DNA from: Eledone cirrhosa
Lineage: Eukaryota
Length of the DNA: 64,000 bases
Direction: 5' to 3'
Assembly (NCBI GenBank): GCA_964016885.1
Contig: OZ024745.1
Location: forward strand, 30,194,001 to 30,258,000
The notes beneath the pieces are model-generated. The model did not search any database. It was not told the DNA's origin and saw nothing but the letters and a program-made list of their open reading frames with translations. Positions 543 through 63,202 of the stretch are shown here, in pieces. The first letter of the stretch is position 1, and every line of letters starts with the position of its first letter. A program made the position numbers and the translations under genes.

Positions 543-593
543 CTTCTTCAACTGACAGCATTCCTTCTTTTTTTGCAGCAACAAGTAGTGTTT
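543..593 (-). CDS. micro-exon A1, 51 nt, [17 protein letters not shown]
   Basis: acceptor ..aaacactag, donor G|gtacgt; phase 1. Confidence 0.85.

Positions 594-63202: not shown

What the first reader, a model, noticed from the sequence alone, without database searches (positions are those of the whole stretch)
543..63202. Hidden micro-exon array gene: at least 24 symmetric 45-51-nt exons encoding variable 15-17-aa modules
Seen: about 1.9% of the window consists of 24 tiny paralogous exons on the minus strand, too short for the ORF track to report as ORFs of their own. All have canonical splice sites, lengths divisible by 3, phase 1-1 and no stop in 396 codons despite AT-rich DNA. Spliced order begins [149 protein letters not shown]. 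Known: symmetric micro-exon arrays generate protein variants in Schistosoma micro-exon genes, and tandem exon clusters do so in Dscam. Inference: any subset of these exons can be skipped or joined in frame, so this is either a large modular repeat protein or a combinatorial isoform generator. I do not recognise the family.
Basis: partly seen in the sequence, partly recalled or inferred. Interest (0 to 1): 0.92.

Follow-up and report, generated by a model that had tools for sequence, protein, structure and literature searches.

The report
Giant octopus gene, 167 micro-exon array
The tiny exons are real and form part of an array of 167, repeated in a fixed nine-exon order about eighteen times, that adds some 2,770 fast-evolving amino acids to the middle of one giant octopus-type gene, most likely a long modular structural protein rather than a free exon shuffler.

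Summary
Confirmed, and much larger than the window. The 24 exons are numbers 89-112 of 167 AG/GT, phase 1-1 exons of 45-51 nt over 475 kb (G000:C5:30,043,598-30,518,794, all minus strand, confined to this locus). Joined, they give 2,769 codons without a stop. After seven lead exons the order is (ABCDEFGHI)x17 + ABCDEFG with no exception: a 149-150-aa super-repeat. The array lies inside one single-copy gene. A chain of 188 exons reads 4,792 aa without a stop, and its flanks match Octopus bimaculoides A0A0L8H5Y7 (57%, 40% and 36% identity): a HEAT-like region, then E/K-rich repeats, then a conserved C-terminal exon. That model has no such array. No exon or splice dinucleotide has been lost (0 changes at 36 sites, about 25 expected), yet replacement sites change about 1.6 times faster than matched intron sites. 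Best reading: a nebulin-like giant protein, spliced constitutively or in whole units and grown by unequal crossing-over, with one helix per exon and diversifying surfaces, possibly in sperm. Free combinatorial skipping is not excluded, because no RNA could be examined. The module matched nothing in the searches run, but those were weak. The 5' end was not found.

The parts
543..63202 (-). Window part (exons 89-112 of 167; units 10, 11 and most of 12) of the micro-exon super-repeat array. Full array G000:C5:30,043,598-30,518,794; host gene at least C5:30,019,2xx-30,742,351
63152..63202 (-). exon class A, unit 10, 51 nt
62057..62104 (-). exon class B, unit 10, 48 nt
60546..60596 (-). exon class C, unit 10, 51 nt
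47304..47348 (-). exon class D, unit 10, 45 nt
46390..46437 (-). exon class E, unit 10, 48 nt
43438..43488 (-). exon class F, unit 10, 51 nt
41650..41700 (-). exon class G, unit 10, 51 nt
40516..40566 (-). exon class H, unit 10, 51 nt
38514..38564 (-). exon class I, unit 10, 51 nt
36319..36369 (-). exon class A, unit 11, 51 nt
35432..35479 (-). exon class B, unit 11, 48 nt
32725..32775 (-). exon class C, unit 11, 51 nt
27162..27206 (-). exon class D, unit 11, 45 nt
24214..24261 (-). exon class E, unit 11, 48 nt
19299..19349 (-). exon class F, unit 11, 51 nt
17640..17690 (-). exon class G, unit 11, 51 nt
16483..16533 (-). exon class H, unit 11, 51 nt
14467..14517 (-). exon class I, unit 11, 51 nt
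8832..8882 (-). exon class A, unit 12, 51 nt
7663..7710 (-). exon class B, unit 12, 48 nt
5392..5442 (-). exon class C, unit 12, 51 nt
3982..4026 (-). exon class D, unit 12, 45 nt
3110..3157 (-). exon class E, unit 12, 48 nt
543..593 (-). exon class F, unit 12, 51 nt
43489..43563 (-). Example of the paralogous ~75-nt 3' intron end (19-nt conserved element about 32-46 nt before the exon, then a T-rich tract and AG) found before nearly every array exon; probably branch-point region
   Evidence: the branch-point role is inference

Best explanation
The array is the coding core of one giant (more than 4,800 aa) octopod protein. SHOWN from DNA: 167 in-frame micro-exons lie between an N-terminal HEAT-like/E-K-rich part and a conserved C-terminal part of a single-copy gene. 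They are arranged as about 18 tandem copies of a nine-exon, 149-150-aa super-repeat; every exon keeps its splice sites and stays free of stops; amino-acid changes between copies accumulate faster than neutral. INFERRED origin: one 51-nt exon with its flanks multiplied into nine diverged classes (17-35% apart), then the 17-38-kb nine-exon block was amplified and homogenised by unequal crossing-over and conversion, mostly in the centre of the array. INFERRED fold: each exon supplies one helix that runs across the junction (Thr-Pro N-cap, acidic N-terminus, hydrophobic Ala-rich middle, Lys-Lys C-terminus, Gly cap, short hydrophobic linker; motif about h-h-h-A-A-A-K-K-x-G-h-L-T-P-E-E). Nine helices then form one packing unit of a helical solenoid or beads-on-a-string rod. 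Exons are therefore included constitutively, or at most skipped in whole units, as in nebulin. INFERRED role: the rod is a length-setting scaffold whose variable positions diversify between copies, probably in a fast-evolving male-reproductive structure such as sperm accessory fibres. This last step is the weakest (about 0.35-0.4).
For: Frame, order and extent. Host gene: the 405-aa downstream exon hits XP_014775115 (36%, E 6.5e-52). Its cluster member A0A0L8H5Y7 (1,681 aa) maps collinearly, residues 36-288 to C5:30.74-30.72 Mb upstream and 1119-1680 downstream. 188 exons give 4,792 aa with 0 stops. Single copy. Retention: 0 changes at 36 AG/GT positions against about 25 expected; 0 stops against about 12 expected among 256 distinct alleles; the only partial duplicates found lack a donor or a proper acceptor. 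Crossing-over: central units differ by 5-11% and edge units by 10-17%; divergence rises with distance (rho 0.41); sub-unit distance matrices are incongruent. Diversification: M0 omega 1.46-1.72, and M2a puts 41-46% of sites at omega 2.7-3.1; tree-free 0-fold 0.121 against 4-fold 0.072, P=0.0014; against base-matched introns 1.63x (1.35-1.94) for 0-fold and 1.15x (0.81-1.52) for 4-fold sites. Helix-capping pattern and 16.6-residue period. Nebulin precedent (central super-repeat expansion; deleting part of a unit is loss of function): PMC7863720, passages.
Against: No RNA evidence at all: no RNA holder was listed and the read-laying runs were not run. Unequal crossing-over between like introns keeps the nine-exon register by itself, so strict order alone does not prove a folding constraint. 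Omega above 1 is unusual for a purely structural ruler and is what ligand-binding exon arrays show. The fold of the unit was not predicted; the best solved-structure matches of the exon profile are weak (E 0.11-0.27, designed helical repeats), and the hydrophobicity period is 8.3/16.6 rather than the 3.6 of an amphipathic helix. The sperm link rests on lineage-fast evolution, a sub-threshold atlas lead (FSIP2 fragment, score 0.79), non-significant fold hits and a recalled resemblance to WDR87; no WD40 exon was found upstream. Site models are inflated by the mosaic history, and the intron baseline depends on alignment (0.069-0.10). Small flanking exons were chosen by splice signals and frame; six of them match the orthologue no better than shuffles.
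Confidence: 0.6

Rival explanations
1. Combinatorial isoform generator: exons are skipped singly or in arbitrary runs, giving a hypervariable binding surface for immunity, self-recognition or gamete recognition, as in brown-algal ROCO LRR exons or schistosome micro-exon genes.
For: All 167 exons are symmetric, phase 1-1, with near-interchangeable splice flanks. Replacement sites diversify, as reported for ROCO LRR exons that are shuffled and alternatively spliced (PMC11378527, abstract).
Against: No genomic shuffling: 160 consecutive exons in fixed order, none lost. Donors are strong and uniform. There is no complement of the upstream element in the pre-mRNA (0 matches at up to 3 mismatches; 2 against 2 for the control at 4) and no excess pairing across exons. 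No signal peptide, transmembrane or signalling domain was seen in the 4,792 aa found; the 5' end is missing.
Confidence: 0.2
2. Tolerated expansion of a flexible linker: the array is translated, but its length and sequence matter little. It grew by drift in a repeat-prone gene, and omega above 1 reflects splicing constraints on silent sites or a biased baseline.
For: The same gene has an independent intra-exon 20-aa repeat (27 copies). The O. bimaculoides model has different short repeats and about 340 low-complexity residues in place of the array. Exons are purine-rich, with 6.6 GAA per 100 nt.
Against: 27-30% of codons are strongly constrained (omega 0.15-0.19). Symmetric exons could be lost for free, yet none is. 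4-fold sites evolve like introns, so silent sites are not slowed. 44% of array residues are hydrophobic, against 27-32% in the flanks.
Confidence: 0.15
3. Not a functioning gene part: an intronic higher-order repeat, a dispersed element or an assembly artefact.
For: No RNA support was obtained. The array is missing from the O. bimaculoides model and was not found in the protein libraries. There is a 200-N gap among the lead exons.
Against: 0 stops in 2,769 codons, intact splice sites, one locus, one strand, in phase with conserved exons on both sides. Units differ by 5-17% in their exons and in intron length, so they are not duplicated assembly.
Confidence: 0.04

Closest known systems
Octopus bimaculoides A0A0L8H5Y7 / XP_014775115 ('CCDC173-like', automatic name)
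   Same: Best match in both directions as far as searched. Collinear N-terminal, middle and C-terminal blocks at 57%, 40% and 36% identity.
   Different: Its model has no 16-17-aa module (exon HMM scores no better than shuffles) and has different short repeats. The NCBI model starts close to the array position, so an unassembled array there is not excluded.
Nebulin (NEB) super-repeat region
   Same: Giant protein of short repeats grouped in super-repeats; expansion in the centre by unequal recombination; whole units tolerated, part-units harmful (PMC7863720, passages).
   Different: No sequence similarity seen (no Pfam or solved-structure match of exon profile or flanks). Nine 16-17-aa modules instead of seven; each module is its own symmetric exon; diversifying rather than conserved; no known periodic partner.
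Brown-algal ROCO LRR exon arrays
   Same: One repeat per exon; diversifying selection (PMC11378527, abstract).
   Different: Those arrays are shuffled, alternatively spliced and belong to a multigene family with ROC-COR domains. Here: one gene, fixed order, no LRR, no GTPase seen.
Schistosoma micro-exon genes (MEG)
   Same: Short symmetric exons between long introns (10.1101/2023.06.21.545858, passages).
   Different: MEGs have 10-20 exons, a signal peptide and products of at most 189 aa, in a 35-gene family. Here 167 paralogous exons sit inside a protein of more than 4,800 aa.
WDR87/WDR97-type testis proteins (recalled lead)
   Same: From memory only: a short motif like that at residues 73-84 of A0A0L8H5Y7, followed by a HEAT-like region and a long E/K-rich repeat tail. 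WDR87 acts in sperm tail assembly (PMC11462348, passages).
   Different: No WD40 exon found in 115 kb upstream; no sequence comparison with WDR87 or WDR97 could be run.
Dscam exon clusters
   Same: Tandem paralogous exons in one gene.
   Different: Dscam clusters are mutually exclusive alternatives for one Ig half-domain with docking/selector pairing (recalled). Here there are nine classes in repeating series and no docking complement.

Membership tests
Schistosoma MEG | Short symmetric exons, mostly multiples of 3, between long introns | tested here: met
   167 exons of 45-51 nt, phase 1-1, introns 0.7-13 kb within units
Schistosoma MEG | 10-20 exons, small secreted product (at most 189 aa), multigene family | tested here: not met
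   188 or more exons, 4,792 or more aa, single copy; definition
Schistosoma MEG | N-terminal signal peptide | tested here: inconclusive
   5' end not found
Schistosoma MEG | Variant transcripts by exon skipping | not testable with these tools
Dscam-type mutually exclusive cluster | Docking/selector base pairing | tested here: not met
   no complement of the conserved element at up to 3 mismatches in 723 kb; duplex energies equal to shuffles
Dscam-type mutually exclusive cluster | Ig domains; all exons of a cluster are one class | tested here: not met
   nine classes in series; no Ig family in the flanks scanned
Nebulin | Simple repeats grouped in super-repeats, expanded centrally | tested here: met
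   nine-module unit about x18, centre most homogeneous: works like it
Nebulin | Nebulin repeat sequence, seven per super-repeat, actin/tropomyosin sites | tested here: not met
   16-17-aa modules, nine per unit; no such match among solved structures: not a member
ROCO LRR exon arrays | One repeat per exon under diversifying selection | tested here: met
   (with recombination and baseline caveats)
ROCO LRR exon arrays | LRR motif, ROC-COR domain, shuffled exon order | tested here: not met
WDR87/WDR97-like | N-terminal WD40 repeats | tested here: inconclusive
   none among 149 listed WD40 matches (150 of 553 candidates scored) nor by motif and exon scans of 115 kb upstream; the gene's 5' end is unknown
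WDR87/WDR97-like | HEAT-like block followed by long E/K-rich repeats | tested here: inconclusive
   HEAT_2 E 0.094, atlas HEAT clusters 0.86-0.90, helical model with HEAT-type fold hits at E above 0.09; E/K-rich region present; the family architecture is recalled
WDR87/WDR97-like | Sequence homology to WDR87 or WDR97 | not testable with these tools
CCDC173/CFAP210 | Family domain of CCDC173 (name given by the source) | tested here: not met
   P0002 and the 416-aa frame give only sub-cut-off unrelated Pfam rows; the name looks like a compositional transfer

The most novel reading that the evidence does not exclude
A cephalopod hypervariability locus: 167 interchangeable one-helix exons under positive selection are spliced in variable subsets, or in variable numbers of nine-exon units, per cell or per tissue, so that one gene yields a repertoire of helical-repeat proteins of tunable length and surface (gamete or self/non-self recognition), built from a repeat module not described before.
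Probability: 0.15. Interest if true: 0.9.

Novelty: new variant of a known kind. Interest (0 to 1): 0.66.

Why it matters
It is an extreme and apparently undescribed gene architecture: a nine-level higher-order repeat of one-module micro-exons over 475 kb, absent from the one orthologous model found, that roughly triples a protein. It shows a new repeat module being born and amplified inside an old gene, with exon retention under purifying selection and amino acids diversifying between copies. That makes it a clean natural test of how super-repeats such as nebulin's arise, and of whether cephalopods, whose neural diversity is usually credited to protocadherins and RNA editing (recalled), also use large-scale micro-exon skipping. 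It also shows that large coding regions can be invisible to ORF-based annotation.

Tried and rejected
Searches with an exon alignment found nothing among 8,000 candidates of 73-2,000 aa or 1.84 billion representatives. Both are weak: the profile had 41 positions, of which about 25 were intron read-through, and the first search cannot see proteins above 2,000 aa. The 405-aa exon found nothing at 710-2,025 aa and 1 of 8,000 at 222-709 aa. Pfam and PDB gave nothing significant for the flanks; the AbiEi_4 and CM_2 rows on the 20-aa repeat exon have 0 passing stretches and are summed repeat noise. Single-sequence models were low-confidence (pLDDT 54 and 43) with no fold match at E of 0.001 or better. 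The spliced unit was not folded. Exon/donor pattern in metagenome contigs: 0. Docking-site search negative. WD40 search upstream negative but not conclusive. The exon(s) between C5:30,027,017 and 30,019,917 were not found. A self-BLAST of the region timed out. Resemblances to WH2, CARD, SHOCT, MshEN, plakin and EF-hand motifs are recalled and untested; they share only a generic helix-Gly-x-Leu-Thr-helix turn. Earlier findings of the scan: none. Literature searches listed no paper on this locus by title or start of abstract; the library lacks most subscription papers, and supplements were not read.

Full report
Observation. An iterated profile finds 24 exons in the window and none on the plus strand; they are 45, 48 or 51 nt, phase 1-1, 1,188 nt in all. 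Self-comparison of the window shows that exons recur together with kilobases of intron, in blocks offset by about 18-28 kb. The rest of the window is microsatellite and retroelement sequence.

Extent. The window is G000:C5:30,194,001-30,258,000 in a 3.0-Gb genome. A 19-nt motif upstream of the exons has 87 matches, all on the minus strand, 85 of them in C5:30.04-30.48 Mb (control 1). An exon-end pattern gives 28 of 28 there and a DNA search 46 of 46. In 614 kb fetched around the window the profile gives 168 minus and 0 plus hits. One is a partial copy without a donor; the other 167 (111 x 51, 43 x 48, 13 x 45 nt) join to 2,769 codons with no stop, where random segments would stop in 87 of 167 cases. 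After seven lead exons the classes run (ABCDEFGHI)x17 + ABCDEFG without a break; units are 149-150 aa and 17-38 kb. A 200-N gap lies between lead exons 3 and 4, so a few exons may be missing.

Host gene. Separate donor and acceptor scans found diverged in-phase exons on both sides and a 1.2-kb exon in the right phase downstream, single copy in the genome. It matches Octopus bimaculoides XP_014775115 (36%, E 6.5e-52; 1 hit of 8,000 candidates), whose cluster holds the 1,681-aa A0A0L8H5Y7. The N-terminal 313 residues of that protein match four exons 200 kb upstream of the array, same strand, and nothing else in the genome; further blocks follow in order. A chain of 188 exons, all AG/GT, from C5:30,742,351 to 30,027,017 reads 4,792 aa with no stop. 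The array is residues 1552-4321, and the flanks align to the orthologue at 57%, 40% and 36%. The order is: a HEAT-like block (weak), a 3.1-kb E/K-rich exon with 27 copies of a 20-aa repeat, a linker of small exons, the array, small exons, the conserved C-terminal exon and two last exons ending in a stop. The orthologue's model has no copy of the module, but its NCBI form begins near the array position, so absence there is not proven. The small linker exons are chosen by splice signal and frame, and six tested match the orthologue no better than shuffles. The 5' end was not found in 115 kb upstream, where an intronless UGPase ORF lies; an adenylate kinase gene converges downstream. The organism is an octopod by homology, and not O. 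bimaculoides.

History. The nine classes differ by 17-35% and share their flanks, so they descend from one exon. Units differ by 5-17%, least in the centre; divergence grows with distance (rho 0.41); different parts of a unit give unrelated distance matrices (correlations -0.16 to 0.55, few sites each). This is the signature of unequal crossing-over and conversion.

Selection. Inclusion is protected: no change at 36 splice dinucleotide positions where about 25 are expected, no stop where about 12 are expected, no exon lost. Amino acids nevertheless diversify: pairwise dN/dS 1.5; omega 1.46-1.72 under M0, with 27-30% of sites constrained and 41-46% at 2.7-3.1 under M2a (inflated by recombination); tree-free, 0-fold sites 0.121 against 4-fold 0.072 (P=0.0014); and, matched for base, 1.63x (1.35-1.94) the intron rate for 0-fold against 1.15x (0.81-1.52) for 4-fold sites. 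Against this, the intron baseline ranges from 0.069 to 0.10 with method, and filtering biases it low.

Mechanism. The module has acidic, hydrophobic, basic and Gly-hydrophobic-Thr-Pro blocks with a 16.6-residue period and helix propensity broken only at the Gly and Thr-Pro positions. This is the textbook capping pattern of a roughly 13-residue helix with a short loop (inference). The only solved-structure matches are weak designed helical repeats (E 0.11-0.27). I infer one helix per exon and nine per packing unit, which would explain why single symmetric exons are never lost. Donors are strong and uniform and no docking-type complement exists, so constitutive or unit-wise inclusion is the simpler reading (0.6 for the whole model; about 0.95 that the array is translated as part of this gene). 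Free skipping (0.2) cannot be excluded without RNA. A sperm role is a guess (0.35-0.4). It rests on fast divergence, a sub-threshold FSIP2 lead, the presence of outer dense fibres and a fibrous sheath in octopus sperm (PMC11753710, passages) and a recalled likeness to WDR87, a sperm-tail protein (PMC11462348, passages); no WD40 exon was found.

Comparison and novelty. It works like nebulin's super-repeat region (PMC7863720, passages) and shares one-repeat-per-exon diversification with brown-algal ROCO genes (PMC11378527, abstract; PMC3341825, listing only), but is a member of neither. It fails the size, number and family criteria of schistosome MEGs (10.1101/2023.06.21.545858, passages) and the pairing criterion of Dscam (recalled). 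The repeat genes of sc-SPLASH are three-exon secreted proteins (PMC11703226, passages). Eight literature searches listed nothing on this locus, and protein searches with the module were blank but weak. Verdict: a real feature, a new variant of a known kind with an apparently new module; interest 0.66.

Noticed in passing
G000:C5:30,714,127-30,711,010 (L087), minus: A 3.1-kb exon of the same gene holds a second, independent expansion: about 27 near-identical copies of a 20-aa unit made of two 10-aa halves; the O. bimaculoides model has a few 7-aa repeats there instead.
   Followed up: partly
G000:C5:30,088,988 and 30,184,187-30,184,170: Two partial duplicates of class B exons: one has an acceptor but no donor, the other a donor but only a stub after a microsatellite; probably not spliced.
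   Followed up: partly
G000:C5:30,028,408-30,028,361: The acceptor of a 48-nt in-frame exon appears to be supplied by an antisense retroelement remnant, while its donor flank resembles the array's.
   Followed up: no
G000:C5:30,026,870-30,005,837 vs 30,005,918-29,987,168: A tandem duplication of about 19-21 kb, 98.6-99.4% identical, carries a second copy of the gene's last two exons; recent duplication or assembly artefact.
   Followed up: partly
upstream of class B exons, e.g. window 62105-62360: The intron 60-260 nt before class B is far more conserved among units (p 0.035) than other introns or exon B itself (0.083), and the A-B intron is the shortest and steadiest (693-1,175 nt); conversion or a regulatory element.
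   Followed up: no
window 8413-8806: A near-perfect 197-nt inverted repeat with no spacer, AT-microsatellite-rich, in the A-B intron of unit 12.
   Followed up: no
G000:C5:30,812,093-30,810,528 (L097), minus: Intronless 522-codon UTP-glucose-1-phosphate uridylyltransferase ORF (PF01704, E 8e-190), perhaps a retrogene, upstream of or inside the gene.
   Followed up: partly
G000:C5:29,896,137 and 29,911,789, plus: Adenylate kinase exons (PF00406) of the convergent neighbour gene.
   Followed up: partly
G000:C5:30,421,544-30,424,950: A 311-bp tandem array that switches orientation midway, inside an I-A intron.
   Followed up: no
G000:C5:30,649,597; 30,541,357; 30,537,929; 30,033,5xx: Further candidate symmetric phase-1 micro-exons in the linkers, left out of the 188-exon chain.
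   Followed up: no
window 10036-12187, 21818-22731, 33078-34049, 47574-48732, 51529-59675: Decayed retroelement frames in the introns (reverse transcriptase PF00078 at 53821-55263; others recognised from memory as Penelope- and RTE-like).
   Followed up: no
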